Part shown: one piece after another, positions 10,093 through 60,203 of the stretch | Position numbering within the stretch: position 1 is the stretch's first letter | How the letters are laid out: the number at the start of each line of letters is the position of its first letter | NCBI GenBank assembly: GCA_000091205.1 | Contig: AP006500.2 | DNA: 64,000 nt | Direction: 5' to 3' (one strand) | Source of the DNA: Cyanidioschyzon merolae | Taxonomy: Eukaryota | The notes under the pieces: generated by a model | Seen by the model: the letters and a program-made list of their open reading frames with translations, nothing else | What the model was told of the DNA's origin: nothing | Databases searched by the model: none | Made by a program: the position numbers and the translations under genes

Positions 10093-11730
10093 TCAGGCTG
10101 TGATAGAGTCCAGGGCGGCTGTCTCCGCGATCCGACGTCCGCGGCTACCCGAACGGTATCCCGCAAGGAAGCGCTCCCACGGCATAATCGACTGGTGGCC
10201 GTCGCTCCAGTTCACGGCGAGGGCGTAATTCCCGACATTCATCATTTGCATCGGGTATATGTTGTCGTCAACTGAATTCGGATCCAGCAGTTGTTTGCCG
10301 GTACACTCATCCACGCATGCGGCACAACGGCACGCCCTCCGGAGTGCTGCAGGTTGAATGCGCTCCTCCATGTGATCCTGGAGCTGCACCACAATTTCAC
10401 GATGATCTGCATCCCACCTCGCTTGTGGGATGGGTACAGCTCCGAAGCGAACCCGTGCACATTCCTGAACGATGTTTTCGGCGATTCGGCGGTAGCATTG
10501 GAAAATTTCACTCGTCTCGGGGAGCGTGAGCGTTACAGGCGTTCCCGTATCGCCAGCCGCGTTGATCTCGGGCCATAGTGGCACTTGGAACGTGCTGCGA
10601 ATGCCGAACTCTCGCGATATCCGGGCGCTGTGCCCTTTTCCGAAGAGATCATAGCGTTTTCCTGTGTCCGGAGCAACGAAATAGGCCATTGACTCCACGA
10701 CTGCAATCGGCGGAACAGCCATTTTGTCTAGAAGCTGGATACCCTTCACAACGTCGGCGAACGCGAGGCGTTGCGGTGTGGTTACGACAACCGCTGCAGT
10801 GGCCTTCAGCACCTGGCCCAGGGTGATCTGAATATCACCAGTGCCAGGCGGTAAGTCCACCAAAAGGTAATCGAGTGAGCCCCAGTCGGTCTGCTGGATG
10901 AGTTGCGTGAGGAGCGAGGAAACCATGGGTCCTCGTAGCATCGCCGGATCTGAGTTGATGTAACCAAAGCTCATGAGTTTCACACCCGCACGCGTCAGCG
11001 GCACCATGAGCCCGTCTGGGGTCAGTCGAATCCGTTTCTCGTTGTGTTCGGGATTCACCATGATCGGCAGCGATGGCCCGTAGATATCCGCATCGAGAAT
11101 ACCCACTCGAGCGCCGAGCCTTGCCAGCACGAATGCCAGATTCACAGCTGTGGTGGATTTCGCTACGCCGCCTTTGGCGGACGTCACCAGAACGATGTTA
11201 GAAACCTGTGAAAGCGGATCGCGCGATCCTCCCGCTTCAGGTGCCGCTGCACTTGGCGTCTGGGCTGTTAGCCGTACGTTCGCACGCGTGACGAACGGCA
11301 GGCTCTCCGCAAGCCTCGTGCATTCCTCACGAAAACGCTCCTTAATGGGGCATGCTGGCGTCGTCAGCTCAACATCGAACGATACGGTTCCATAGTGTTC
11401 ATCACCTCCGAACTGTATATTCTTCACAAACCCCAGCGTCACAATGTCCTGCCCCAAGTCGGGGTCCACGACTGCTTTCAGCGCAGAGAGCAGTTGCTCT
11501 GTTTTATCTGCGACGCTAAGTGGACGCTCAGACTCGTTGGCACAACAGACCAATCGACGTCTTTGGGTTGAAAGCCTTACATTCCGAGCGCTTTTGACTG
11601 GCTGCCTGCAGCCGCTGCCCCAGTACCCCCTGGCGCACGCAGCACAGCCTGGTGCCCGCCGCTGCAAACGACCTGCCGCCGCGACACCTAACGAACAGAA
11701 TGCTAGACTTGTGACAGTGCCTTGCTCCAT
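10093..11730 (-). CDS. HCF101: HCF101-type Fe-S cluster assembly ATPase: N-terminal DUF59/MIP18-like domain, Mrp/NBP35 ParA-type P-loop NTPase, C-terminal DUF971; with an N-terminal targeting-like extension
   Basis: The DUF59-like region is DKTEQLLSALKAVVDPDLGQDIVTLGFVKNIQF...TTPACPIKERF. The deviant Walker A is VTSAKGGVAKSTTAVNLAFVLA, and the Mrp motifs DYLLVDLPPGTGD and VVESMAYF are present. The C-terminal DUF971-like region is QLQDHMEERIQPAALRRACRCAACVDECTG...YALAVNWSDGHQSIMPWERF. This three-domain order is diagnostic of HCF101 rather than NBP35/Cfd1/Ind1. The track start 11796 is TTG; the first ATG is at 11730 (checked). The N-terminus is rich in S, R, A and C. Confidence 0.88.
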   Translation of the reverse strand: MEQGTVTSLAFCSLGVAAAGRLQRRAPGCAACARGYWGSGCRQPVKSARNVRLSTQRRRLVCCANESERPLSVADKTEQLLSALKAVVDPDLGQDIVTLGFVKNIQFGGDEHYGTVSFDVELTTPACPIKERFREECTRLAESLPFVTRANVRLTAQTPSAAAPEAGGSRDPLSQVSNIVLVTSAKGGVAKSTTAVNLAFVLARLGARVGILDADIYGPSLPIMVNPEHNEKRIRLTPDGLMVPLTRAGVKLMSFGYINSDPAMLRGPMVSSLLTQLIQQTDWGSLDYLLVDLPPGTGDIQITLGQVLKATAAVVVTTPQRLAFADVVKGIQLLDKMAVPPIAVVESMAYFVAPDTGKRYDLFGKGHSARISREFGIRSTFQVPLWPEINAAGDTGTPVTLTLPETSEIFQCYRRIAENIVQECARVRFGAVPIPQARWDADHREIVVQLQDHMEERIQPAALRRACRCAACVDECTGKQLLDPNSVDDNIYPMQMMNVGNYALAVNWSDGHQSIMPWERFLAGYRSGSRGRRIAETAALDSITA

Positions 11731-12969
11731 AGCGCTCCTCTTCTCAGAAATAGTGACCAGAAAACTTTTCGTATGGTAGCCGCTCAACACGAACAACTCG
11801 CGCTCAAAACCTCACAGCACCGAGTGCTTGGTGCAACGAACAGACGCTTCCGCGGACACAGTGCCCACACGAGAACGTCGAGTGCAGCTCGTTCGAGACG
11901 CACACACTGAGCCCTACCGCTACACACAAGGAGAAACTGTGGACACTGCTCAAGGCTGGTTGGCACCAAGCACACACCAAAAGGTAACAGCTTTCGTGCG
12001 GCTTCGAAGAAAAAGCACGCGTTGCGCTGCTGCCTTACGGAGGCTGCTCCAGCGGCTCGGGCGACGGCAGCGCAAACCGATGGCGTGGACCTGCGGTGCA
12101 CAAACGCACACGCGGTGGCAGTCCCAGAGTCGCAAAACGCCTACTCTTTCTTTTCCTGGGATCTGTCTGAGGACACAGACTCAATGGGACATTCTTCTGC
12201 TCGTTCTACTGCTGACTTTCGATGTTGTACGAGCGTTTTATGTTCATGTCCAACCTCGATGTGCCAAGTTCAACAACAAGGGTTCAAGGGATGCATCGGT
12301 AGTTTCGGGATTGAAGGACGCGCTTGCTGCTGTCGGGGTCGGAGCGCCCGCTATGCTGCGCATTTTCTGGTGTAGGCGCAATGAACTTAACCAGAATTTC
12401 CCGAATGTGCGACTGCGCTCGACACTGAACGCGGAGATCACGGTTGCTTCACAGTGACCTGTGCATCGCGTGTGCTCCATCCTGGTGTTCCCGCTCAGCA
12501 CAGCGGATGGATCCGTCTTGTGCGCCGCCGGATCCCGAGTCTTCCACGGGTGCTTGGCGAAACCCTTGAGGCATCCGTGCCGTCGTCACCACACGGCAAC
12601 AGACCGAGTTTGAGATCCCTCTACGGGCGACTGCTCGAGATGTAGCGATGGATGCATCACGGCCGCTAGCGCTTTGCAGAGGCAGCGCAATGTTGCGACA
12701 AGTGACGGGCGTTGGCTCCGGACAGCGCATACCGCATATGTGCGCACTATTCCCATACAATACCCAGACTTTGTGCAACCGCCATTCATAAACACAAGCT
12801 TGATGATTTACATAGCATTGGAGGTTTCGTTATCGAACACCTGTCCCCTGTGACGGACCGGGCAGCTTCGGCGTTCCGCGCACATCTACGGACACAATGC
12901 ACTGCCGCCAAACAACTTGTTGTTGCTTGCATCCAGGTCCATGAAAAAGCAATGATCGAGCCTGTAGGC

Positions 12970-13692: not shown

Positions 13693-15191
13693 GGGCCTGA
13701 CTTTGCCAAAAGTTCCACAGCACACTCGTTTACGCTGCAATGGAAGAGAGACGACATTTCCGATTGCGCTGGATCGCATGAACGACGCGCGAGCTGGACA
13801 CCTGCTCCGTCGACCAGTACGTATATCGAGTGCAGGAATCGATTGTATACGATGCCCTTTGATGCGTTCAGGACGATATACAAGCATCAAGAGCGCGGGT
13901 GCATGCCAAAACAGGTAGAGAGGAAGCTCGTAGAACAGAGACGGTTGCACGAGACGCTGCAGGGTAAGCTGACCGGACCTCACATGGCAAGGCAATCGTT
14001 GGTGAGAGGCTTTCCATGGCGGGATCCCTCCAGCAACCATACGCATAAGCACATTCTGAACCGAGACTTGATGCCTCGATCAAAATCCGGAATCGTCTCG
14101 TGGCTCCTTGGCGTCCTGCGGCTTTGCATCAAGCGAACTTTCGACGGAATCGTTTAGTGGTCCGTATGTGCATTGAGATGAAACGCTGCAGATTTAGGAC
14201 GAAAAAACTCAGTAGCGCGGAGAGGCGGCATTGTACGCTCCAATGGATCAAGGCATTAGGATGTTAGGGTGCAGCCTCCCAGAATAACTCGAGCGCCGTA
14301 TCTATTCACCAAGAACAGTTTCCCTGGGCAACTCGGGAACGATTACAGTCTTCCATCATTCGACAGTGTTGTGTTTACCAGGGACGATTCCGCTCACCAG
14401 ATCGGTCCTGGAGGCAGTGCAATTTTTTCACCCGAGGCAACGCAAGCGACAGCTCAGTTTTCCATGAAATGCTCTTCGGCTGTGTGCTGAAGCCGTAGCC
14501 GCTGGGGTCATGCCGCGTGCATCTGCACTTGCCTGCGGCCTGTGTTCACATATCGCGAGGCTGCATGAGGTGTCCGAAGCGGAACCTAGCACCTGAACAT
14601 GCACCTGTGCACTTGTTCCTCGCGCAGCCGATTTGGCTCTCAGCTGAGCTCTGTAAACTGCAATGCTCCCTTGGAGGACGCGGGTCGGATACGCGCTTCT
14701 CGCAAAGAAACCGCGGGCGATAATGGACACATGTGGCGACCGAGACGCACTTTTGCGGTCGAAGCGTTCACCCAGCAGATTGGGGAGCAGCAGGACCATA
14801 CCCGGCGCTTCCATATCCTCAAATCTTGATGAAGGGAACGCGTCTTGAATAGGCGGGTGTGTCGGCGGTTTGGGGACGCTGTGCAAGCCGCACAGCCCGC
14901 TCGGATTCCCCGTTGTACCGAGCCGTCAAAGCGAGCCACCGTAGACGCCCAGCGGTTTCGATGCAAGGCTCCATATGCCGTGCCTACCGCATTTCTTGAC
15001 TGAATCGACACAGATGGTCTACTTTCCTGGACGTAGGAGCTTGTTGGATAATCCTGAGGCACCCGCTCTGGCGTGCTTTCAGGAGAACGCATCGACGAGC
15101 GCCTGGAGCGCACCGCTGGCACCGGCTAGATGCATCAGCGGCATTAGAGTTCCCACACATACGATCGGCTTTATGGACCAAGTCGTGCCGA

Positions 15192-17439: not shown

Positions 17440-18850
17440 GGCACCTACGATCGGCTTCAGTTTCTACCTGCACACTTCGAGCCTGAGGGGTTGTCCCCAT
17501 GAAGTAAGATCGCGTCAACTCCACGGGTCTCAGCTACAGCACCGCACGTCTCCTGATATCGAGGGCGGCATGGAGGTCTTGGTTGAAGAACTCCTTGCGT
17601 GCATTGATGCCGGTTGAACTCACCAAGGCATGGAGGAGTCCTCGAACTCGTATCCTCTACTCCACGAAAACCTCTTCACCGTCATGTCGGGCAAACACTG
17701 TTGCTCGCTTATCTCCACCCTTCTTATTCTTCGTCACTTGCTCTTCTGCGCTCGATGGACGGCGGGACGAGAATTTTCTTCGTTCTTTCGTGGAACCCCG
17801 GGATGACGGCCCTCTACTACCGCCGACTTCCATCCCCGAAACTTTTCTTTAGATTTTTGTACGTTGGAAATGAATGCACTTGTTTATGTCCCTAGGTGAG
17901 GTCCGTCCCGGAGGGAGAGGGACTTTCGGGACAGAGACGACATGTGCACCGGTGTGCCGCCGTGTGTTGAACGCTTCAGCGATTCACCCAAAGGATCCGT
18001 CGGTACTTTTAACGATACAAAGCACTCCTTCAATACCGTTGAACCATGGAGCGTACCGAGGAATGAAAAGCAGCTCTATGCCGATCGAATCGCCAATAGC
18101 TCGAATGCAGCGGCAATGGTGAAATACCACGTTGTCCAATGGAAGGATGTCGCCAGACGCTAGTGGAAAAGTCGTCGATGATGCGACGAAGCGGTTGGCG
18201 GTCCTGCATGCGCCTTCTCTACGGGCAAAACTGAGGCAGCCAAATAATTCCACTCCAGCTAGACCAGGGGATGATATCGTCGTTCTCTTCGAATTCAATC
18301 GTACATTCAACTGGCTCCTTGCTCCGCGAATATCCGAAAACACTCCAACTGTTTGGTCCGAAAGACGTCTCATCGACTGGAAAAACAAACTGACGTCCCT
18401 CTGCTTCATTCCGATCGCGACGTTCCAGGAACACTGTAGCTGCGATTTCGGCGGAAGAAGGCTGTGTGTGAAATTGGACTCTGTTTTTGCAACCGTATCC
18501 CCGTGGTTTCGGTACGACACGAACAATCCGCTCAGAAGCAGAGACGCTGGTGTCAGCCTCTATCGTCGCTTTGCCTTTCGTAAGGAGATCAACTGGCCGT
18601 TTTCTACCATCGACAGCGAGCAGACTTGGAGAATATCCGGTTTTGACGAAGAGCGCGTATAATTGTTTCTTTCAGTGTTCCTAAAGCATCTGAGTACTGT
18701 GGTATGACTGACCTGATGGAGGAGTGCAGTCCTCCTCGCTCTGTGCAGTAAAGAGTATATATCTTATAGGCGATTCGTCTACGGTCGATGGGGTACATTG
18801 TACGGGGATTTCGATCCCCTGCTATGCACCGCAGCGGAAGTGAAACAGAA
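17440..18850 (-). mobile_element. Tc1/mariner-type DNA transposon, ~1.4 kb, degenerate (frameshifted transposase on the minus strand, imperfect TIRs); copy A
   Basis: Minus-strand ORF fragments give FVFPVDETSFGPNSW (first D region), LPLDNVVFHHCRC (the DN..H region) and LFIPRYAPWFNGIEGV (matching the LP.YSPDLNPIE box). The ends are inverted-repeat-like: 17440-17500 against the reverse complement of 18790-18850. About 1.3 kb is alignable along its length, on the same strand, with the segment 43540-44920. Confidence 0.6.
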
Positions 18851-36260: not shown

Positions 36261-39051
36261 TAGAGTTTTCGGACAAATCGATACTTACTTCCCCAGCTGA
36301 CCATTGATCTAGGTTCCATGTCGCATGGAGGCACCTACGGAAACACCGAGGTCTGTCCTTGACTGGATGCAGCGCTTATGTTTCTGGAACACGCTCCTCG
36401 CTTGCCGCGTATCCACACCGTGCAGCGGTCTCCATGCATGCGTCCACATTAGAGGCCGTGCAGAGCGCGCGGATCATGGGCCCTGAGCCGCGCTCTGGGC
36501 TCCGCTGTGCGCGCACCCAACGCGCATCGCGCCTCGCGAAGCGCACCAACACCGATGAGCGCGCAGCGGCGCCGTCGCCCGCAGTCGCGTGCGGAAGTCA
36601 GCAACCGCTTTGACCAACATTGACTAGCTTCGTGGTGGCCGAGCGTGCGTCGTCGCAGACGGACGCCCCCAGCGTACGCATACAGCAAATGCACCCGACT
36701 ACGAACTCGCCTAGGACTGCGCCGTTGCACCTGGAACCGTTTGAGGGCACGACTCATGTTTGTGACAGGTTCAATTTGGTGTTGGCGCAAGCAGTGCACG
36801 CAGCTCAGTTGCGCCCGCGTCGCTCCTGAGAAGCCAACGACAGGGTTTGCACGGCGGGGAGCACGCCGCCGGCTCGGTTGCCAAGCGCTCGTCGCAAAGA
36901 GCGACCTGACGGGTTGGAAAGACTGGCTGAGTGGCGGTTGGCCCGGCGGCGAGGCAGGTTTTTTCAAGTGGCTTGACAGCGGTGGTGAGGATGATGTCCC
37001 CTACCTAGAGCCGGATAAGCAGCCCCGGGCCTCCAAGTCCGGAGCTCGTTCGTCGTCGAACAACGCAGCGGCTCGCAGTGACGCAGCTGCACCTCGTTCG
37101 AACTCGACGGCGGCCTCAACGCCACCACAGGGTGGTCGCGTCGTTACCAAGCTCGTGACAAACCCGATTACTGGCAGGATAACTTTGGAGTATGTCGTAG
37201 AAGACGACGAGAACAATACCAAGTGATGATAGAGTTGGTCAAGGCTGTACCTACCACGTCCAAGTGCGCTGGCGGAGTTGGGGACACGATTCAACAGGAA
37301 CACACCATGGAACTGCTTCGTGAATCAGCGAAAGATTGAGTCCGGTTCTGATGGACGTGGCTGGCAATGCCGCCATGCTTCAACAAGTTTCTCGGTGGTG
37401 TAAACGCGTCATGGCTACGTACTTGAACACGGAGACACCTGTCGGTCTAAAGCTCTAGTTTTATTCCAGTGCCGTTGCCAGGGCTCTCTTCGGGGGCAGC
37501 TGCGGCGCCCAGCGCTCCAGGCTATCGAGTCTGGTCATCAGGGGAATGGTAGATGCCTTCCTGCGATGCAAGAGTGCTCTGATGTCAACACCATTCCTCA
37601 TCGCATTTTTTTAATTTGACGAAACGTTTCCATAGGCCAGCGTTCTTCGATTGTGCGCTTTTTCTTTTCTTATTTTTTTGTTGTTTTTTTCAGTGCGCGG
37701 TGAAGTATCCATCAAACCCGCTGCCTCCAAGTTACATGACCTGTACTTCTTCTCGGATATTCTAGTCGTTCCATACGTCCTATTGTGTGCCTAGTGCCTG
37801 CCGAAAGCGACAGCAATGGCGCCTATAGCGCCGGTGCAGTCGCTGCACGGAGACAGAACGGCATTGCCGTAGCACAGAGGGCGTCGGCTCGAGGATTTCT
37901 CATCGCATGAAACGAGGTTTGCCATTCTTCACATACTGTTCCTATCCGAATGAACCCGCAACGTTTCCGCTGGCGTACACGGTGGTCGCTCTGCGTCAAT
38001 GGGTAGGCAGCGGATGCATCCAAGTCTGTGCTGTCGCGTCCGAGCCTTGACGTTTTCGCATAGGCCGCGCGATACGCTACTTCCAGGTTTCGTCTGAAAA
38101 CACCTTGGATCAAACCGGCTACGTCGCGCAAGACTGTATCTGCGCTTGGACACGAGCGTTGGGTTAGACGACACCGTTGGTGCCAGCTACAAGAAGTTTC
38201 GCCTTACGAGGCGGAAACCGAGGGCAACTCGTGCGGACACCGGTGCAACAGCGTCGCGGACGTAGCCCTGAGCAACTCTTCAGTGCAGGTCACTTAACCA
38301 CCAGGTGACGCATTTTCGCCAACGCATTCGCGATTAGCGACGTGAGCCGGCAATCGACGGGTGTCGGGACAGCAAGTGCTCGACGTGGTTCGAATGCGTC
38401 CACAGACGGGACACACCTGCAACGTACAGCTTTGAACCTCCGGTGCAGCGTACAGCGGAAGCAGAGGCGAACGCGGACGTATATGCCGTCACCGGTTAGG
38501 TCTACGGAGGTCAGGCTCCATTGGGACTCGCGTTCGTCGTCTTCAAGATCTGGTCCAGTCACGGTATATCCAAAACAACGCAAGTGAAACGAGACCTGCG
38601 TTCCGGATATGTAAGTCGCTCTACGGTTTAGGAGTGGAAAGATCAGGCTCTGCCGCCAAAGCTGGTTTCTGAGCGAAATCCCATGAACGCATGAACCGAA
38701 CTACCATCTCGAAACGAAAAGATCATGCTTTACGGACTCCATGGCTTTCCGAGCGAAACCCAATAGCTCCCCATCCACACCCCGAAACGATCAATGTTCG
38801 CAAAGCCCCGCTCCCCTGAATGAGCACCATGCGTGCAACCTCGTCCCAAAAGTAGGACGGAAATACCTAACGAATCTGGTCCAGCTTTTCTATCTTTCCT
38901 CCTCGTTCGCTGTGCCTAGAAAAATGGTGTACAAACACATCAGTGCTATTCAAGACCCTTTCCCGGTTCGCTCTCTGTCTTGATAACTAGTTGCTCTATT
39001 TTCTTGAGCCGAGCTTGCCAACCCCTCGTGCCGGCTTCGTCGCGACACCGC

Positions 39052-43539: not shown

Positions 43540-44920
43540 GACTAGACCCCGGTATCGACTCAAGTTTCTCTCTCCACCCTCCAGCTTGCGAGGCTGTATC
43601 ACGAAATTAGATAGGAGGAGCCGCTCGGGTCTCGTACTGAGCACGGCACGTTGTCTGATAGTGATAGCGGCGTTGAAGTCTAGGTTCGCGAACTCCCTGC
43701 GTGGTTTGACGCTGGTCGAACCCACGTATACAAGGATTCCTCGAAGTGGTGCCCTTTGCGCCGCTACAGTCTCTTCATAGTCATGTCGCGCAAACTTTTT
43801 CCCGTCTATCTCACCTCTTCTACACCCGAGATCTGGGGGAGAAGAGGATTTATTGTTCTTTGTCGAACCCGGCGATGAAGGCCCTCTAGAATCCCCGAAT
43901 TCCATGTCCATGCAATCCTTTGGATTTTTCCTTCAACATAAACGAACCTCTATGCACTTAGGTGAGGACCTTCCCGGAGCGAGAAGGACTTGCAGTAGAA
44001 ACACGACATGTGCCTGGGTGTCTCCATGTGCTGAACGCCTGAGCGATTCACCCAGTGGAACGATCGTTACGTTTCACGATTGAAAATACTCGCTCGACGG
44101 AATTGAACCACTGGGAGCACGGAGGAAGGAGAAGCAGCCCTGCACCCCAATTGATTGGGAAAAAATCTCGAATGCAACGGGAATGGTGAAATACTAAGTT
44201 GTCTAACAGACCGACGTGTCCAAACGTCAGGGGAAAGTCTTCAATAGTTCGACAAAGTGATTGGTGCTGTTGTATGAGCCTTCTCTACGAACGAAATTGA
44301 GGCCGACAAATGAATCCGCTGCAGCTAGAATAGATGATAATGTAGTCGTTCTCTTCGAGTTCGATCATATATGCGATGAGCTCCCTCACCGCGAATATCC
44401 ATACATGCGCTGACCGTACCGTTCGAAAGAAGTCTCATCGGATCAAAAAACAAACCGACGTTTCAGTGCTTCTTACCGATCGAGACGTTCGGGGAACTCC
44501 GGGGTTGCGATTTCGATGGAAGATAACCGTGCGTGATGTAGGACTCGCTTCTAGCGACTGTATTCAAGTGTTCTCGGGGCCACACGAATAAGTTGTTGAG
44601 AGGCAGAGACGCCGGTGGCAGCCACTATCTTCGCTTTCGCCTTGCATAAGGTGATGAACAGGTCGCATTCTGCCATGGACCGCAAGCACGCTTTGAAAAC
44701 GTCAGTTTTGGGCGCGGAACGTATATACTTGTTTCTTTCTTTCATTATCCCTCAACAATCTGAGTACTATGGTATAACTGACGTGATTGAGGAATGCAGT
44801 CCTGTATGGGATGTTCAGTAAAGAATACATCCCACTGCGATTCATATGCAACATATTCGGTTCATTGCCTCGTGATTTCGATCTCCAGCCCTACACCGCA
44901 GCTGGAGTGAAACAAAACTG
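43540..44920 (-). mobile_element. Tc1/mariner-type degenerate element, copy B (~1.4 kb)
   Basis: Alignable with copy A throughout: left end 43540-43700 against 17440-17600, the internal degenerate transposase region, and right end 44750-44920 against 18690-18850. The ends are inverted-repeat-like (agtttctctctccaccctccagc... against the reverse complement of ...gctggagtgaaacaaaac). Confidence 0.55.
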
Positions 44921-48676: not shown

Positions 48677-51120
48677 GATTAGCGTTCTCTGGTCTCAGGT
48701 TAACATTCGGGGCGCAGGCAGACTGTCGACAATTTACAAACGCTTCGAGACACCTCACCAGCGATCGCACAGAGCTCCTCTGTGCTCGATGCGGTGGCAG
48801 GTTTGAGCGTCTCGCATGTCTAGCGCGCATGCGAAGAACTGATGGCACGTGAGCGACGGCAGCAGCAGCAGCAGCATCCCTGATGATAAATTCCGAACAA
48901 GTCCGCGCGAATATCTGCACGAGTGGCAGAGAGGCTTTTCCTAGTCCGGCGATATCCTTAGCGGCTGCGATCATACGTTTTACTCTACGAGTCCTGTCGC
49001 GGTTCCTTTTGCAAAAGTCTCGTACACTTCGAGAAGCACGAGATGCCACTGCCTCGCGTCTGTGGCAGCAAACGCTGTGCAAAACGGCCGAGCCGCATGA
49101 TATGCTGCCAACCGAATCGCTCCGAGTTGTATATTGCGAGGATACGAGATCCAATGAAGTGGCTCTCGGAGTTTCCCGAGAACGACGCCGCAGCGACCGT
49201 GGCGCTGTGCACCTTTTTCTGAGTCACTGAGAAGGAGCGTTATGGCCTGGGCCTTGCAAGAAACACTCGCCCAAGCCAGCATGCTCCGAAGCGCCTGCGA
49301 GTCTTTGCGGTACTTTGGTAGGCATTCCGATCTGCAGAGCTGATCTCACGGCTTTCTGCGACCTCGATTGAGGATACCGCTGGCGGGATGCGCCATCCGA
49401 ACGACCCTGGGCCAAAAGCGAGCGTGCAGTTTTCAGAAGAAACTTCTAGGTCTCTAGTACGAAAATCCTCCCACGGAATGGACGAGCTCTATTAAGAGAC
49501 GCTGCAGCGAGCAAGCAGCAACGCCAGTGGGAGTCGCAGTTCCTGTAGGTACGAGACATACGCCTCAACACGCTCTCGGCTTGCAAGCGAGTTCTGTAAA
49601 CGGTACAGGAATGACATTGACATGGCCTCCGCAATCTGTATTCAATCTACTGGGAAGAGGCGCTCATGCTGGATATCTTTTCGCAATATCTCGGGTATGT
49701 AGGCGAATAGCATCATCTTTGCCAGTTGCGCGATAAATAATAACGCTTGCTTATGGGGTTTATGATCAATTTGCTGGGAAGACTCGTCGATGCGTTACTC
49801 ACAAGCCGATGGACGTGCGGACAACATGTTCGAATCATCGATCGTATACCCTGCAAAAGTAATATGTACCGTCTCCCGTGCTCATGGATGTAGGAAAATT
49901 AGTTTTGATATTCCGACACCGTCGCATGAAAAGCAGAATGATCCCCAATTGCGCAGCTGCAACTTTTTGTTCGACAGAAGGTTTACCTGGACCAGCTATC
50001 CCAGAATGGAGGATGGGTACTGGAAATCTAAAATGCGTTCATCATACTGCACCCTACCTTCGAGCTCTATTACCCATGCTTCCTCTTGGATGTACTGGTC
50101 TTTTTGTACTTTCTATCGTGCATCGATTGTCTGCTGTGAGCATCCGCAATAGCACCTATGCAATTGGTACGGATGTGACACAGAGACAGAGTGGCTTTGC
50201 TATACCACTGACAGCATCAGCTCGAGGAGTGCTGCGCTCGACACGGTGTCAAAGTACATAATCATTCTGGGAGCCCGCAGGCTGCGCAGACAGACCTGCT
50301 GTCTGCGGCAGCGCGAAGCGGTATTCTGGGAGATAACTGCAACAAGGGCGACGCATAGACACATTCTACCCGCTCCGAGTGACAGAATAAACTGCGTTGC
50401 GGACGAGTTGCGCAGATCTCACTATAGTGCCCGCCACTGGGAGGAGCATGAAGCGTATGCGGGGCAGATTCGTCCCGCTCGCGGGACCTTTCGCCAAGAA
50501 GGTAAACATTTGACGATATGGAGAGCTTTCCCCTTTTAATGTTTATCGTAGAGGGGGAATGGATTTTTTATATCGTTGGTAGTTCATGGTTAGTCTCTGT
50601 TCTTTTTTCTGTATGGAGCAGTCGATACAATCACCTCTATATCTGGCAGGCACGAGACAGGATGGGCATCTCGCCGTTGAAGCGAAACGCGTTCCTGAAG
50701 AGTATCATGTTGATCTAACAAGATGTATTTGCATTGAAGACGGAGCAATCTATAGTTCAGTCTAATTATGTTCCAACTTTCAAGTGAGTACATTCAAGTG
50801 ATTCTTCGCACTATGTAACGGAGGCGTTCGAAGAGCGTCCTTTTTCAAAAAAGACACTAAAACAGGAAAGTTATGGGAAAGCGAGTCGACGAGCCCTGAG
50901 GCCCAGTGTCGCCGGCTGCCTGAAAAAACAAAAAACAGTGCCGAGTCAAGAAGAAAAGGAAAAGAAAAAGAAGCGAAATGGAGAGGCCCTACGTCGAAGG
51001 CTGCAATAAAGACGACAGTGCGACGAAATCGTAGTAAAACCCTGTCTTCGTAGACATATCAAGGGTCCGCACAAGGAAAAGTCGCAAGACGCCATCAGAA
51101 TCCATATCGCGTCTTACTCC

Positions 51121-53150
51121 ATGAGTATTATAAAGGCGCCGTTAGGACTAATGCATTTGGAGAAGGATACGTGTCGCAACGTGACGGACATCAAAACAAT
51201 TGACGTTCTGGAAGAATTTTTCAACAAGACCTTCACCCGCCACCTGATGCTTGGCACCGGGGAAACGTCGAGTGGAAATGAGCGAGCGCATGCCCTCCAC
51301 GAAAATCACGCCGAATACCGCATCAGCGGTACTCGATCCAGGGGCGACTTGTGTATTGACACCTGCGGGGCAGTCAGGTACTTCACGAACCTAAAGATCC
51401 ATTTGACCGTGAAACTCGAATGCTTCACGATACGCGTCCTGTTTGCGCTGTACTCGGGCCTCTCGCGCACAGGAATATGGGTCATTATCGATGGCATCAC
51501 GAATGATCGCCAGCACGAACAGGAGACTGAGCTCGTCGAAGAGAAGATATCACACAGGAGAACGAATGAGGCTTCTGTCATCCGTGCGGCTATGCAAGAG
51601 CATCGTGCGGACTTGGTGCTCGCGCATCCAGCAGAAAAGGTATCAGATATGAAAAAAGATGAAGAAAGATGCTGTTCCCGAGCCCTGCGCTATTTTACGC
51701 TTTTGGGCCGGGATCTGGAACGCATGGCCGAAAAGCAGCTGAGTCGCGGAAAAATGAAGATTCGGAGGAATGGAAGGCTTTCCTAATGGGTACGCGCCTC
51801 AACGTCGTTCCGATATGCAGCGCCAACTCATATTTCGTGGCAGTCTGCTCCAGCGTCCCTCATGGCATCGTGAGGGATATCTGTCCGGAGTTCGATGCAG
51901 GCAAGAAGGAGTTCATGGGCCAAAACCGGGAAACTCATTGGAAGAATATCTTCGATTTCAAACGTCTCAATACGGGCAAGAAAGGGTATTCACGGGGACC
52001 ATCGGAAGCGATGGGGCAGCCATGTGTGTACATTACCGGCGGCTGGGGGCGGATCGTCCTATCGTGCCTTCGGCTTCGCCCTCGCCGAAGCATGAAGAAA
52101 AGAAGGAGGCAGATCCTGCGACTCAGGAGGTGCAGGATAACGAGCTTGTCGCTGGCTCGGCGAAGCATGAAGAAAACAACAAGGCGGATCCTGCGACACA
52201 GGAGGTGCAGGATAACGAGCTTGTCGCTGGCTCGGCGAAGCATGAAGAAAACAACAAGGCGGATCCTGCGACACAGGAGGTGCAGGATAACGAGCTTGTC
52301 GCTGGCTCGGCGAAGCATGAAGAAAACAACAAGGCAGATCCTGCGACTCAGAAAGTGCAGGATAACGAGCTTGTCGTTGGCACCGACCCGGGGAACACAA
52401 ATATCGTTACCATCGCTGCACCCAAGCGTGCGGAAGATGGTCCTGACGTTAGCTCACGTCAGAAAGACATGCTTCTTTTAAAGTTCTAAACATAGAAATA
52501 CCATCGAGAATCGGGAATACTGAATACGAGGAAGAAAATCGAGACGTGGAATGCCGCAGTGCAAGAGCATCTGGAAGCTTTGAGCGAGCTGACGAGCCGA
52601 GGAGCGGACTTTCAGGCTTCTCGGAAATCCATGAAAGTTCGTGTTGCTCATTGGGAGGCGCTGTGGGATGAGTATCCAAAGCCCCGGTGGGCTCGTCAGC
52701 GACTGATCTTGTGCTGTGGGAAACAGGGAGCGTTCGCCAACTTTTTCAATGCGTTCGGCGCCCTCAAAGAGGACGAGAGTCAGAGGCTCGCAATAGCGTA
52801 TGGAGCAGGGCGCTGGATGACCCAAAAAGGGTGTACACAGCTCCATCGACAAGAGCGTACAAGAAGTGTGCACATCGTTTTGTCACAATACCTATCGATG
52901 AGTTCCTAACGTCCTATATGCACCATGAGCTGGGGTGCACACTTCCGAGCGTCGAGACGGAAAAGCGTCAGCGGGGCCCTGAGGATATAGCAAAGTACGG
53001 AGCGCTGACAGAGCAGCAAGTAGAAAGTAGGGCGAAAGTTCCTGGGCTACGTGCACTGGTGCGTACAACCAGTGATGGCAAGAAACGTATAGCGTTTGTC
53101 AATCGTGACTCGAACGCCGCTATCAATACCAGGAGATGTACGGTGATGGA
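51121..53150 (+). pseudogene. TnpB/Fanzor-like RuvC-fold nuclease relic, interrupted by frameshifts and stop codons
   Basis: The three RuvC motifs occur in the right order but across shifted frames. RuvC-I (G.D.G....A) is LVVGTDPGNTNIVTIAAPK, ending the ORF 51770..52489, with the stop TAA at 52487. RuvC-II ([DN]E.[YF]TS) is TIPIDEFLTSYMHHELGC, about aa 65-84 of ORF 52687... RuvC-III (RD.NAA.NI) is IAFVNRDSNAAINTRR, about aa 135-150. The zinc-finger CxxC pairs are degenerate. A 75-bp x4 tandem repeat lies inside the relic. The relic abuts the IMP peptidase gene in the same frame. Confidence 0.45.
52087..52386 (+). repeat. 75-bp tandem repeat x4 inside the TnpB/Fanzor-like relic
   Basis: The unit gaagcatgaagaaaacaacaaggcggatcctgcgacacaggaggtgcaggataacgagcttgtcgctggctcggc is nearly identical across copies. 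In the RuvC-I frame it encodes (AGSAKHEENNKADPATQEVQDNELV)x4. The last copy runs into ...QDNELVVGTDPGN (the RuvC-I motif), so the repeat is a duplication of the RuvC-I lead-in. Confidence 0.8.
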
Positions 53151-53364
53151 GACGAGACCCCCGGAGTTGATACGATCCAACTTTACGCGGCAGCCTCTCA
53201 AGGTGAACTTACCCAGGGACAAGTTGGAACCAGTAGTAGGTGGCCGGTCCAAAAAGACCGGGAGGCGTCTGCACGTCAGCGTACCGACATCCACACTATC
53301 GGCGTCGTGTATATGCGTCGGTATACCTGTTTGGTCTGTGGTAGCTGAGAAGCATGGCCCGTGG

Positions 53365-53964
53365 ATGCCTTTTTCGAGTCGTTTCTTTCGGCAGCTGGTT
53401 CGCGGTGTCAGCTATGTGCCGGTCGTGTACGTTGTCCACGATCTTGTCGGTACGATTGTTCCCGTGAGGGGTGCGTCTATGCAACCAACCCTGAACCCAG
53501 GTGCGGCTGCAGGGGAGCTACCTCCCGGACAAGTTAGCGGCAGTCAGGATGTCGTGTTGGTTAGCCGGCTTCTCCGCGCTGTTTGGAACGTAAGGCGTGG
53601 GGATATCGTCGTTTTGCGGTCTCCCGACGCGGGACCGCAGAAGCGACTCGTGAAAAGGGTGGCCGCTCTAGAGGGGGATCGCGTTTACAACCACCGCACT
53701 GGGAAGTTTGTGGAGGTTCCACCTGGCCACTGCTGGCTCGTAGGTGACAACCGTACGGTGTCCCGTGACTCGGCTAGCCACTACGGGCCGGTTCCGCTGG
53801 GACTCCTCGAAGGACGCGCAGTGGCGGTTATCTGGCCACCACGTCGCTGGCAGGTGCTCGCGACGTCACCAAGCACAGGTTTGTGGCTCGACACTCGGAA
53901 CAGCGAGGGAGACCAACTGCCAGCCAAGAAGCAAGTGCTGGCCAAGTCGGCAACTACGAAGTGA
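53365..53964 (+). CDS. Mitochondrial inner membrane peptidase IMP1/IMP2-like (S26 signal peptidase I family)
   Basis: The S26 boxes are present: GASMQPTL (catalytic Ser), RGDIVVLRSP, KRLVKRVAALEGDRV (catalytic Lys) and GHCWLVGDNRTVSRDSASHYGPVPLGLLEGRAV, followed by VIWP. ATG at 53365 (checked); an alternative ATG lies at 53146. The listed ORF 52687..53964 begins at GTG, and its first ~225 codons belong to the upstream TnpB-like relic. Confidence 0.78.
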   Translation: MPFSSRFFRQLVRGVSYVPVVYVVHDLVGTIVPVRGASMQPTLNPGAAAGELPPGQVSGSQDVVLVSRLLRAVWNVRRGDIVVLRSPDAGPQKRLVKRVAALEGDRVYNHRTGKFVEVPPGHCWLVGDNRTVSRDSASHYGPVPLGLLEGRAVAVIWPPRRWQVLATSPSTGLWLDTRNSEGDQLPAKKQVLAKSATTK

Positions 53965-54099
53965 ATGGCTGTACGTCCGGATGGTGAGCAGAGAACGGCG
54001 CTATGGAGCAGCACCCATTTCAGAATACCATACAACGGATCCGCTCAGCGAACTCGGGCGTAGACGCTCAAGTCTGGACCGCTTCGCATTGTCATCTAC

Positions 54100-54700
54100 A
54101 AGAGGTTTTGTGGGCGTTTTCTTCGAGTACGTCCTTTTCCTCGCTCTTGTCTCCGGTATTGTATACGTCGAACGATGCATGTTGTCTTGTTGGGTTGCCA
54201 GTAACCGAGGCATGTCGACGGCAGCGGTAGAGTCGCGGTATCGCCTCTTCGGGCAGTTGTGGACGCGTTTCATGCCCAGGCAAAAGTTGCCATCGATGGG
54301 TCCTCTGTATGTGTATGCAACGTCGGTGCTGCGTTTGCAGCGGTGACAAACTTGGGTGTGTTCCGGCGTTCCCATGCGTCCCCAACGTACGTTCTCCCTC
54401 TCGGAAGGGCGCTTTGTGGTACCTGTACGCCAGCTCCATCACCCACCATATGGTATCGACGGGTGCAGAGGGCTTGCCCCGAGATCGTCCTCCGTTTCGG
54501 CGCCTGGTGCCGTAAACTGCGATGACGGGCTCGTTCTGGTCGATCGCCTCGGCGAGCACCAGACGCGCTGCAAACACAAGTGCAAACGCCTCCTCTCGAT
54601 GACTCAACATGCGCTGGCTTGCGCGCTCTTCGCTCCCTGAGTACGCTTTTGGCGAAACATGGCGATGATCGTGACGAGCATCGCGTTGCCGTACCTACTC
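54100..54700 (-). mobile_element. Decayed pogo/DDE_1-like transposon fragment (minus orientation)
   Basis: Minus ORF 54092..54610 gives ...ARLVLAEAIDQNEPVIAVYGTRRRNGG..., homologous to ...SVLDDMSSLNKRLIEAYGNGPGNEG (19504..19698) and to the 30300-30740 copy. At the nucleotide level, 54470-54570 is similar to 30560-30660. Confidence 0.5.
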
Positions 54701-55039
54701 GTGGGCATTGTGTGTCCACGTGCTTCACTTGTGTGCGAGCGTGCAGTCACGGCTTCTGGGACTCGCTGCTGCTTCCGTCGCTTGCTTGCTGGACGGACGT
54801 TTTTCGCGTTCATTATCTTCCGCTGATACGAAGAGTACAGGCGCGCTGGCAGAATGCACGGCTGCTGGTCCAAGTCAAGTATGCGGGCACAAAACCCGAG
54901 CAGCCATAGCTTCGCCTGTTGCCACCAGGGGTATTGGGTCTCTGTTTGGGTAAAAGAGGAGCGCAGGTGCAGGGGTCCGCACTGCATGCTCCAGGCTGGT
55001 GCAGAGTGCATTGGAGAGCATCCTCGCGAGGCGATGCAT

Positions 55040-59091: not shown

Positions 59092-60203
59092 AAATCAGCA
59101 GGGAGCCACCGAACATCTGGGAGCGTCTGAAACGGTGGGGGCACGGGAAAGTTTACGGATTGGCGATTGCGCCGCTACGTACAGGTTAGACTCTTGCCAG
59201 TAAACCGATAGAGTACACCAGAATGCAGTTTGCGCTTATGGCGGGTACCTCGATCGTGTCAGGTGAGTTGCAAGGCATAGGCGCCGTGGTCTATATCGAC
59301 ACAGCATGCATGCTGTGTCTCTGCGAAGATCACCGGATCCGGCGGACGTTGCGGGCACCATAACTTAAACCACGACGGCAACATGTTACCGATATGAACT
59401 GTCATCGGTGCCAGCCCGTGACCCCCCAATAGCAGCCGCATTCAAAACAGTTCCTCATTGCAGCGACCGTGCCGCACGCATTACAAGCACCGTCAGTGAT
59501 CGTATATGCCTGCTCACGAACCCGTCGATGACTAGATTTTTTTCTACTTTCCATATACCTAACGAAACTCCTGCTCACTAGTGTGAGGCATACCTCATCG
59601 GCCCACGCGTGCGACGCCGCGAACGCTCCCCGTGTGCTACAAACATCGCGGGGTTTTGCGCCTGCCCTGTACACACGCCGGGTACGGTCGGAATGGTGCA
59701 CAGCAGAGGGCAGCAGCGTCGCGGCCAGCGCCGGCGCGTAACGCGGGAGATCATTCGACGTGAGCTCCGCAACCCCCCGATACCTGATCCCCTGCCGCAC
59801 GCTGCAATGCACATCGGCTCGTCAGCGCGCGGCAGGGCACGCTTGCGTCAACGCGGCGTCGGACACGTGTCCTTCATCGATCGGCGGCGGTCTGCGACGT
59901 GTACGCACCGCGGTCGATACGCGCGCAAACAGATTTTGCAGGCATGGGACACGACGCCGACGCCGTCGTCGAAGGGAAACGCGTTCCTGACCATTCGTCG
60001 ACTTTGCCGGGAAACATGCGATGCCGCATTCGGAGCATGCACTGCTGCCGGTGACGTGTCCCATGCACGCCGACGGCATGGCACGGCGACATCAAGGATG
60101 CAGCCTCTCCGAGCGTGCGACATTGGTGTTGAAGGCGTAGCATTCGAGTAGCGAGCGGTATTCATTCACGCGTAGAGCAATACAACTGCAACCTTAGGAA
60201 AAA

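What the first reader, a model, noticed from the sequence alone, without database searches (positions are those of the whole stretch)
51121..53150. Frameshifted TnpB/Fanzor-like RuvC nuclease relic with an internal duplication of the RuvC-I lead-in
Three hallmark RuvC motifs of the TnpB/Fanzor/Cas12 lineage occur in the right order over ~750 bp but in shifted frames. RuvC-I is G-T-D-P-G-N-T-N-I-V-T-I-A at ~52380-52420. An E-containing [DN]E.[FY]TS box is IDEFLTSYMHHELGC at ~52890-52935. The highly specific RD.NAA.N box is FVNRDSNAAINT at ~53095-53130. There is one TAA stop (52487) and at least two frame changes between them. The Zn-finger Cys pairs are largely lost, so this looks like a dead copy rather than an active OMEGA nuclease. 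Eukaryotic TnpB homologues (Fanzor) are uncommon and associate with diverse transposons. A relic here, beside two other DNA-transposon families, is worth documenting. The possible N-terminal part (51121-51786) is unrecognisable to me. The 75-bp x4 array duplicates the residues leading into RuvC-I (…QDNELV|AGSAKHEENN… against …QDNELV|VGTDPGN).
Basis: partly seen in the sequence, partly recalled or inferred. Interest (0 to 1): 0.7.

Follow-up and report, generated by a model that had tools for sequence, protein, structure and literature searches.

The report
Dead copy of known Fanzor1 transposon

Summary

The window is Cyanidioschyzon merolae 10D chromosome 18. The locus is one degenerate copy of the published Fanzor1 element CMe-1A (Bao & Jurka 2013: about 150 copies, about 3 kb, no TIRs).

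The copy spans about 49964-53280, more than the reported 51121-53150. It has a 5' non-coding module of about 680 bp, then an ORF starting at ATG 50873. That ORF is broken by four 1-bp frameshifts and five in-frame stops. The copy also lacks the family's conserved 3' tail of about 100-130 nt.

Family membership is firm:
- Relatives are 55-70% identical (E about 1e-185).
- A profile of diverse relatives hits solved Fanzor1 chains (E 8e-19).
- An AlphaFold model of a relative matches SpuFz, PpFz and GtFz.

The missing Zn-finger cysteines are a trait of the whole clade, intact members included, so they are not evidence of death. The 75-bp repeat is a family-wide in-frame VNTR of 1-5 units in a disordered linker.

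Verdict: already known, low interest.

The parts
49964..50640 (+). 5' non-coding module of the element (long form). It corresponds to the ~635-bp TE-N2_CMe-like module reported for CMe-1A.
   Evidence: DNA similarity to about 29-33 other copies starts at 49970-50070, and a second class of copies starts at about 50640. The aligned 5' ends share the TTTTTTCGATGACAAAACGTTTAC... start, which in the window is tttttgttcgacagaaggtttacc from 49964. Bao & Jurka describe the 5' 635 bp as shared with TE-N2_CMe. The exact first base is uncertain by about 10 nt.
50641..50872 (+). Leader between the 5' module and the start codon.
   Evidence: Aligned with both long- and short-form copies, for example L003 5676 onward.
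50873..53279 (+). Degenerate Fanzor1 (CMe-1A) coding region. It runs from ATG 50873 and is read through frames 2 -> 1 -> 0 -> 2 -> 1.
   Evidence: 81.8% identity to the consensus of 39 copies, whose ORF is intact at 776 codons. tblastn with P0007 gives E = 2.8e-154. The search for homologous proteins gives 140 hits, best E = 7e-185.
50897..50923 (+). Two N-terminal in-frame stops (TGA 50897-50899, TGA 50921-50923), followed by a 1-bp shift in the A-run at about 50924-50935.
   Evidence: Frame reading compared with L067, where the Met is in frame with the rest of the ORF. Both stops are shared with L001. The A-run itself is one base shorter in L001, so its length is polymorphic. This is the least certain lesion set, because the consensus is ambiguous in the A-runs.
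51007..51009 (+). In-frame stop TAA.
   Evidence: Stop in the consensus frame. Shared with L001.
51745..51745 (+). 1-bp deletion relative to the family consensus (frame 1 -> 0).
   Evidence: Global alignment to the consensus ORF. Shared with L001.
51981..51981 (+). 1-bp deletion relative to the family consensus (frame 0 -> 2).
52081..52381 (+). In-frame 75-bp x 4 tandem array (25-aa unit ...KHEENNKADPATQEVQDNELVAGSA...). The last unit supplies the beta-strand lead-in to RuvC-I.
   Evidence: TRF score 525, 95% matches. This is 225 bp more than the single-unit consensus. Copy number is 1-5 in other copies, and L001 has only 2. In the model of P0120 the equivalent linker is the low-confidence segment 399-407, just before Asp421.
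52385..52387 (+). RuvC-I catalytic Asp codon (GTDPG).
   Evidence: Invariant D421 column in alignments A1 and A2. Retained in the window.
52487..52495 (+). Two in-frame stops (TAA 52487-52489, TAG 52493-52495) inside the conserved RARYYRESGI segment.
   Evidence: Shared with L001.
52796..52804 (+). AYG at the position of the canonical RuvC-II glutamate, replaced by Gly as in other Fanzors.
   Evidence: Y558 and G559 are invariant or near-invariant in A1 and A2. Jiang et al. 2023 describe the substitution to Pro/Gly with an alternative Glu downstream. The mapping of AYG onto the canonical position is my inference.
52837..52837 (+). 1-bp deletion relative to the consensus (frame 2 -> 1).
52900..52902 (+). 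Rearranged RuvC-II catalytic Glu codon (IDEFLTS).
   Evidence: Invariant E592 column. It aligns with the DEFRTS/DEYKTS motif of PpFz and SpuFz.
53107..53109 (+). RuvC-III catalytic Asp codon (NRDSNAA).
   Evidence: Invariant D659 column. It aligns with NRD of PpFz and SpuFz.
53280..53364 (+). Breakpoint and non-family sequence. The family's conserved 3' tail is missing here. This stretch is the 85-bp leader to the neighbouring IMP2 gene (ATG 53365).
   Evidence: Similarity to about 67 copies stops at 53270-53280. Other copies continue for about 100-130 nt of conserved sequence. Only L066 shows weak resemblance, out to about 53318.

Best explanation
The locus is a dead copy of CMe-1A, the non-autonomous Fanzor1-carrying DNA element of Cyanidioschyzon merolae, on chromosome 18 just upstream of the IMP2 gene.

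When intact, the family encodes a protein of about 700-750 aa with the Fanzor1 architecture. That means an N-terminal basic (NLS-like) stretch, WED/REC domains, and a split RuvC domain. The catalytic residues are Asp (GxDPG), the 'rearranged' Glu (VDEFRTS) and Asp (NRDxNAA). By homology with SpuFz1 and TnpB, the protein is expected to bind an RNA transcribed from the element's 3' end and cut DNA complementary to the guide part of that RNA (inferred, not shown here).

The window copy cannot do this. It carries four 1-bp frameshifts and five premature stops. About a quarter of the family-conserved residues are changed. It lacks the 3' tail of about 100-130 nt that would supply the RNA scaffold and right end.

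The 75-bp array is an in-frame minisatellite in a disordered linker before RuvC-I. The whole family carries it in 1-5 units. In this dead copy it still expands and contracts: 4 units here, 2 in a 97-99% identical contig.
For: - Organism: three window proteins match C. merolae 10D entries exactly (BAM82534.1, CMR314C, CMR316C), on a 1,253,087-bp contig.
- Published family: the element's length, copy divergence, lack of TIRs and separable 5' module fit Bao & Jurka's description of CMe-1A.
- Homology: 140 protein hits at 55-70% identity, best E = 7e-185. 416 related stretches were confirmed by tblastn in metagenome contigs. There are 2029 representatives at E < 1e-3.
- Profile search against PDB sequences hits Fanzor1 chains 9cf0 (8e-19), 8gkh (8e-12) and 9cer (2.6e-7).
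- The AF2 model of relative P0120 (pLDDT 84.7) gives Foldseek top hits SpuFz, PpFz and GtFz, with E = 5e-18 to 6e-16 and TM 0.53-0.73.
- Decay: lesions listed against an intact consensus ORF. All stops and all three internal 1-bp deletions are shared with the independently assembled L001. 36 of 137 residues conserved within the family and 16 of 57 conserved more deeply are changed. Divergence from L001 is 1.7% in the relic against 0.33% in the IMP2 coding sequence.
- The relic ORFs are absent from the protein collection that holds the 10D annotation.
Against: - No direct hit of the window's conceptual translation to Pfam or to PDB sequences. Membership therefore rests on transitive homology through relatives, though that link is very strong.
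- The Repbase CMe-1A consensus was not available for direct alignment, so identity with the published family is inferred from the description and the organism.
- RNA guidance and cleavage are untested for any member of this clade.
- The clade lacks the C4 Zn finger found in characterised Fanzor1 and TnpB proteins.
Confidence: 0.95

Rival explanations
1. The frameshifts and stops are sequencing or assembly errors, and the locus encodes an intact, possibly active Fanzor1.
For: All three internal frameshifts are single-base deletions. The N-terminal one lies in a homopolymer run whose length differs between the window and L001.
Against: Every stop and all three internal 1-bp deletions recur in the independently assembled metagenome contig L001. 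L002 aligns without gaps over 52130-55039. Five stops are substitutions, not indels. 26-28% of conserved residues are replaced. The 3' tail is missing.
Confidence: 0.01
2. The frame changes are introns, or programmed frameshifting, in a functional gene.
For: None specific. The host is a eukaryote.
Against: Relative to the intact consensus, the changes are 1-bp deletions with no inserted intron-like sequence. Stops lie inside conserved coding segments such as RARYYRESGI. C. merolae genes are almost all intronless (general knowledge).
Confidence: 0.01
3. The relic, or its 3' part, has been co-opted by the host. It might serve as promoter or 5' leader, or even as an N-terminal extension, of the adjacent IMP2 gene. 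Frame 1 is open from 52687 through the IMP2 stop at 53964.
For: The relic ends 85 bp before the IMP2 ATG. The 425-codon open frame fusing the Fanzor C-terminus to IMP2 is also present in related contigs (P0105, 433 aa).
Against: The NCBI model for IMP2 is the 199-aa protein starting at 53365. The fusion ORF has no ATG start and comes from prokaryote-style gene calling. About 30 stop-free codons between relic and gene are unremarkable. The relic diverges five times faster than the IMP2 coding sequence between window and L001, which argues against constraint.
Confidence: 0.04

Closest known systems
CMe-1A, the Fanzor1 element of Cyanidioschyzon merolae (Bao & Jurka 2013, Mob DNA 4:12; PMC3627910)
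   Same: Same genome. Length is about 3 kb (3.3 kb here). Copies are about 80% identical to the consensus (81.8% here). There are no TIRs and no recognisable TSDs. A 5' module of about 635 bp also occurs separately. Most copies are degenerate and a few are intact.
   Different: Nothing essential; this is simply one copy. This particular copy is 3'-truncated at 53280 and carries 4 units of the 75-bp repeat. The Repbase consensus itself could not be aligned here.
Structurally characterised Fanzor1 nucleases: SpuFz1 (8GKH), PpFz (9CF0), GtFz (9CER)
   Same: The overall fold matches (Foldseek E = 5e-18 to 6e-16, TM 0.53-0.73 for relative P0120). The RuvC Asp, rearranged Glu and Asp align. The canonical RuvC-II Glu is replaced (AYG). 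A basic N-terminus is present.
   Different: Only 12-15% sequence identity. The CMe-1A clade lacks the CCCC Zn finger of the NUC/TNB domain. It carries a variable 25-aa tandem repeat before RuvC-I. No omega RNA or TAM has been defined for it.
Prokaryotic TnpB of IS200/IS605 (for example ISDra2) and Cas12f
   Same: RuvC-fold nuclease of the same superfamily. There are weak Foldseek hits to Cas12f (E about 1e-4), and the NRDxNAAxNI end of Pfam PF07282 is matched weakly in 5 of 34 relatives. The family's 3' end carries a structured region ending in a stem-loop, as IS200/605 right ends and omega RNAs do.
   Different: Eukaryotic host, a much longer N-terminal half, a rearranged RuvC-II Glu, no Zn finger and no TnpA partner.

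Membership tests
Fanzor1 (eukaryotic TnpB homologues) | Significant sequence or profile similarity to established Fanzor1 proteins. | tested here: met
   The window translation is 55-70% identical to relatives. A profile of 34 relatives hits PpFz, SpuFz and GtFz at E = 8e-19, 8e-12 and 2.6e-7. The direct single-sequence search was negative.
Fanzor1 (eukaryotic TnpB homologues) | Fanzor1 fold (WED/REC plus split RuvC plus NUC). | tested here: met
   AF2 model of relative P0120 (40% identical to the family; pLDDT 84.7, pTM 0.82). The top seven Foldseek PDB hits are all Fanzor1. This was tested on a relative, not on the broken window copy.
Fanzor1 (eukaryotic TnpB homologues) | RuvC catalytic Asp, rearranged Glu (canonical RuvC-II Glu replaced by Gly/Pro) and Asp. 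| tested here: met
   GTDPG (52385), AYG (52796-52804), IDEF (52900) and NRD (53107) are retained. The columns are invariant in A2.
Fanzor1 (eukaryotic TnpB homologues) | C4 Zn finger between [TS][TS] and RD (Bao & Jurka motif; CCCC in SpuFz1 and TnpB). | tested here: not met
   The window has 1 Cys (ELGC) in that segment, and close relatives have 1-3. Only 1 of 37 long relatives has two Cx(2-5)C pairs. This is a clade-wide trait that includes intact genes, so it qualifies the motif definition rather than excluding membership.
Fanzor1 (eukaryotic TnpB homologues) | Uninterrupted ORF (functional gene). | tested here: not met
   Four 1-bp frameshifts and five in-frame stops, shared with L001.
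Fanzor1 (eukaryotic TnpB homologues) | Associated omega RNA encoded at the 3' end of the element. | tested here: inconclusive
   Other copies carry a conserved tail of about 100-130 nt that folds better than shuffles in 4 of 5 cases (z = -2.0 to -3.4). It ends in a stem-loop whose sequence differs between copies. The P1 and P2 helices show no covariation beyond shuffles, and RNAalifold predicts only 3 pairs. The window copy lacks the tail altogether.
Fanzor1 (eukaryotic TnpB homologues) | RNA-guided DNA cleavage. | not testable with these tools
   This needs biochemistry. No member of this clade has been assayed in the papers read.
CMe-1A element of C. merolae | Host genome is C. merolae. | tested here: met
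   Exact matches to BAM82534.1, CMR314C and CMR316C of strain 10D.
CMe-1A element of C. merolae | About 3 kb, multi-copy, about 80% identical to the consensus, no TIRs, 5' module of about 635 bp shared with TE-N2_CMe. | tested here: met
   3.3 kb (49964-53280). 81.8% identity to a consensus of 39 copies. No terminal inverted repeats. The 5' module of about 680 bp is present in only a subset of copies. The copies compared come from metagenomes of related algae, not from the 10D genome itself.
CMe-1A element of C. merolae | Direct alignment to the Repbase CMe-1A consensus. | not tested
   Repbase is not among the tools.

The most novel reading that the evidence does not exclude
The relic itself is dead. 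Its family, however, may be a still-active, Zn-finger-less Fanzor1 lineage in thermoacidophilic red algae. In that reading the conserved 3' tail acts as the omega RNA and right end. The tail is three hairpins, and the terminal stem is rebuilt with different sequences in different copies. The protein would tolerate a variable 25-aa minisatellite in the linker before RuvC-I. If so, intact members (for example the ORF on L003, or P0120) would be RNA-guided nucleases working without the NUC-domain zinc site.
Probability: 0.3. Interest if true: 0.45.

Novelty: already known. Interest (0 to 1): 0.15.

Why it matters
For the genome scan it matters mostly as a calibration point. A tool-less reader correctly recognised a broken Fanzor from three short motifs. 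The object, though, is a routine member of a repeat family catalogued in 2013 in a model alga.

Three side observations may be useful to people mining Fanzors. None was discussed in the papers read.
- This Fanzor1 clade lacks the 'strictly conserved' C4 Zn finger.
- It carries an in-frame VNTR before RuvC-I.
- It has a conserved, structured 3' tail.

The side observations also show that missing cysteines should not be used as a pseudogene criterion in this clade.

Tried and rejected
- Pfam scan of the frameshift-corrected translation and of six relatives: no significant family. There was only a sub-threshold PF07282 tail hit, and the precomputed DUF8286 (weak) label could not be reproduced.
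- phmmer of the translation, and hmmsearch of a narrow 13-sequence profile, against PDB sequences: nothing. Only the broader 34-sequence profile worked.
- RNAalifold on 50 aligned 3' tails: only a 3-bp helix.
- Hand-drawn helices P1, P2 and an alternative hairpin: 84-86% of cells paired, but covariation no better than shuffles.
- Inverted-repeat search for TIRs: none at the ends.
- Rfam over the whole window: no match.
- Exact look-up of the relic's ORFs in the protein collection: absent.
- Orthology test of L066, which shares a weakly similar odd 3' tail: it has no IMP2 downstream, so it is not orthologous.
- TSD or TAM at the left end: flanks upstream of the conserved TTTTTTCGATGAC start show no common motif.
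- Chance, sequencing error and introns were considered and rejected (see rivals).
Full report
OBSERVATION. The region was read directly and translated in three frames.

- GTDPGNTNIVTIA lies at 52379-52417, in the frame where position mod 3 = 2.
- IDEFLTSYMHHELGC (52894-52938) and FVNRDSNAAINT (53095-53130) lie in frame 1.
- Tandem Repeats Finder reports a 75-bp x 4.0 array at 52081-52381 with 95% matches.

Between RuvC-I and the RD box there are two adjacent stops (TAA 52487, TAG 52493) and one frame change. Otherwise the description is accurate.

WHAT IT IS. A frameshift-corrected translation found nothing in Pfam or in PDB sequences. Against the large protein collection it gave 140 hits at 55-70% identity, the best at E = 7e-185. 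Among them are a near-full-length relative of 752 aa (P0007) and a complete 699-aa protein with a Met start (P0120, about 40% identical).

A profile of 13 close relatives still missed the PDB. That profile did retrieve 2029 representatives at E < 1e-3 from the 1.84-billion-protein library. A profile of 34 diverse members then hit the solved Fanzor1 chains:
- Parasitella parasitica, 9cf0, E = 8e-19
- Spizellomyces punctatus, 8gkh, E = 8e-12
- Guillardia theta, 9cer, E = 2.6e-7

The invariant columns are D421, E592 and D659 in P0120 numbering.

An AlphaFold2 model of P0120 built on that alignment reached pLDDT 84.7 and pTM 0.82. Its seven best Foldseek matches in the PDB are all Fanzor1 structures, with E = 5e-18 to 6e-16 and TM 0.53-0.73. 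Cas12f and other Cas12 proteins follow far behind. The family is therefore Fanzor1, and the window copy belongs to it.

WHERE IT COMES FROM, AND WHAT IS ALREADY KNOWN. Three window ORFs match Cyanidioschyzon merolae 10D proteins exactly: BAM82534.1 (IMP2-like), CMR314C and CMR316C. All sit on a 1,253,087-bp contig. The CMR prefix means chromosome 18 by the species' locus-tag convention (my knowledge).

Bao & Jurka (2013, PMC3627910) described the Fanzor1 element CMe-1A in this genome. They reported about 150 copies, each about 80% identical to a consensus of about 3 kb. They found no TIRs, could not determine TSDs, and left the classification unknown. The 5' 635 bp are shared with a separate repeat, TE-N2_CMe. 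Some copies are still intact. The later Fanzor papers read here mention rhodophytes only in passing and do not treat C. merolae.

ANATOMY OF THE WINDOW COPY. A scan of metagenome contigs confirmed 416 related stretches, of which 80 loci were fetched.

DNA similarity of the window to about 70 of these copies begins at 49970-50070. For a second class of copies it begins at about 50640. It ends sharply at 53270-53280.

Aligned 5' ends share a TTTTTTCGATGACAAAACGTTTAC... start, which places the window's left end at about 49964. No terminal inverted repeats are present.

The consensus of 39 copies has an intact 776-codon frame. Against it the window copy is 81.8% identical. It shows 1-bp deletions at 51745, 51981 and 52837. 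It has a 225-bp in-frame insertion, equal to three extra repeat units. It has in-frame stops at 51007, 52487 and 52493.

I compared the window with L067, where the Met is in frame with the rest of the ORF. On that basis the true start is ATG 50873. Two further stops (TGA 50897, TGA 50921) and a 1-bp shift in an A-run then lie in the N-terminal basic region. This last set is less certain, because the consensus is ambiguous in the homopolymer runs.

The three catalytic codons survive. However, 36 of 137 positions conserved at 90% or more among close relatives are changed, as are 16 of 57 deeply conserved positions.

Every stop and all three internal 1-bp deletions recur in L001, an independently assembled contig 97-99% identical to the window. 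Only the length of the N-terminal A-run differs. This excludes sequencing error and dates the inactivation before that divergence. Between the two sequences the relic differs at 1.7% of sites, against 0.33% in the adjacent IMP2 coding sequence. That fits neutral decay. None of the relic's ORFs is in the protein collection that holds the 10D annotation.

THE 75-BP ARRAY. Relatives carry the same 25-aa unit in variable number. P0002 and P0007 show several units and P0003 shows one. Among 39 DNA copies the count is 1 (18 copies), 2 (13), 3 (4), 4 (2) or 5 (2).

L001 has two units where the window has four. Units 2 and 3 of the window are identical. The array is therefore a family-wide in-frame minisatellite that keeps changing length even in a dead copy.

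In the P0120 model the equivalent linker (residues 399-407) is one of only three low-confidence segments and lies directly before the RuvC-I strand. That placement explains why length variation is tolerated (inference).

THE ZN FINGER. In the profile alignment the CxxC pairs of PpFz and SpuFz face non-cysteine residues of this clade. Between the DEFxTS and NRD motifs the close relatives have 1-3 cysteines and no CxxC. Only 1 of 37 long representatives has two Cx(2-5)C pairs.

P0120, an intact gene found identically in three metagenome contigs, has a single cysteine there. The missing finger is thus a clade trait, not a sign of decay. It is an exception to the 'strictly conserved' C4 motif in the original definition.

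The AYG at 52796-52804, followed 33 residues later by the Glu of IDEF, fits the rearranged RuvC-II site that Jiang et al. 2023 describe for Fanzors. The mapping of AYG onto the canonical position is my inference.

THE 3' END. Other copies continue past the point equivalent to 53280 for about 100-130 nt of conserved sequence. That sequence reads GGAGACGTTTCGTCTAG, GGCGG-GTTTCT-CGCC, ACTACTGTAC, and then a stem-loop next to the divergent flank.

Single-sequence folds give a recurring architecture of three hairpins. z-scores run from -2.0 to -3.4 in four of five tails. The terminal stem-loop is formed by clearly different sequences in different copies:
- CGTTCGA/TCGAACG
- CGTTTTTC/GAAAGGCG
- a 15-bp GC palindrome in L069

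Over 50 copies the mean z is -1.6, and 15 copies have z below -2.

Formal tests do not support covariation. RNAalifold keeps 3 pairs. The two upstream helices pair in 84-86% of cells but no better than shuffles. This is expected if most copies decay after insertion.

I regard the tail as a candidate omega RNA scaffold and/or right-end signal. This is unproven.

The window copy lacks it. After 53280 only L001 and L002 match, and L066 matches weakly to about 53318. The copy is therefore 3'-truncated. It ends 85 bp upstream of the IMP2 ATG at 53365.

MECHANISM. Shown here:
- homology and fold of the family
- retention of the catalytic motifs
- multiple disabling lesions and a missing 3' end in this copy

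Inferred from characterised Fanzor1 and TnpB: intact members bind a 3'-end-derived RNA and cleave DNA matching its guide. The window copy does nothing of the kind. It is a fossil.

The long frame-1 ORF that fuses the Fanzor C-terminus to IMP2 (52687-53964; P0105 in related contigs) is best explained by chance plus prokaryote-style gene calling. A regulatory co-option for IMP2 cannot be excluded but has no support.

VERDICT. The object is an ordinary, already catalogued repeat copy.

Noticed in passing
window 13744-14070 (+), 17495-17665 (-), 43600-43848 (-): Three further short relics of the Fanzor1 C-terminal region (the RuvC-II/III part), 37-53% identical to P0120 or P0007 at the protein level. 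All are 3'-end fragments of copies.
   Followed up: partly
window 37606-37918 and 59447-59981: Fragments similar to the 5' non-coding module or leader of the element family (66-77% to L012, L003 and L001 5' regions). They are probably solo TE-N2_CMe-like pieces.
   Followed up: partly
L003 8343-8430 and the equivalent 3' tails of about 50 loci (alignment A3): Conserved 3' tail of about 100-130 nt in intact-type copies, with three hairpins. The terminal stem-loop is built from different sequences in different copies. It is a candidate omega RNA or right end. There is no significant covariation for the upstream helices.
   Followed up: partly
Family-wide (alignments A1, A2; P0120 residues 593-658): This Fanzor1 clade lacks the C4 Zn finger that the original Fanzor/TnpB motif treats as strictly conserved, yet it includes intact genes and gives a confident model.
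   Followed up: partly
window 53365-53964 and cluster 1: C. merolae 10D has two near-identical IMP2-like genes a few genes apart on chromosome 18 (BAM82534.1 and BAM82540.1, 2 residue differences). This implies a recent local duplication. The second copy lies outside the window.
   Followed up: no
L001 1-821 versus window 49964-50791: The contig otherwise 97-99% identical to the window has a different sequence upstream of 50792. That sequence resembles window 59447-59884 instead. So the 5' module of this relic differs between strains or paralogous loci.
   Followed up: no
L031 and L039: Two family copies lie head to head in inverted orientation on the same contig.
   Followed up: no
window 10093-11796 (-): An intronless ORF with DUF59, ParA/NUBPL and GBBH-like_N domains. 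This is an HCF101-type plastid Fe-S assembly protein, consistent with an intron-poor photosynthetic host.
   Followed up: no
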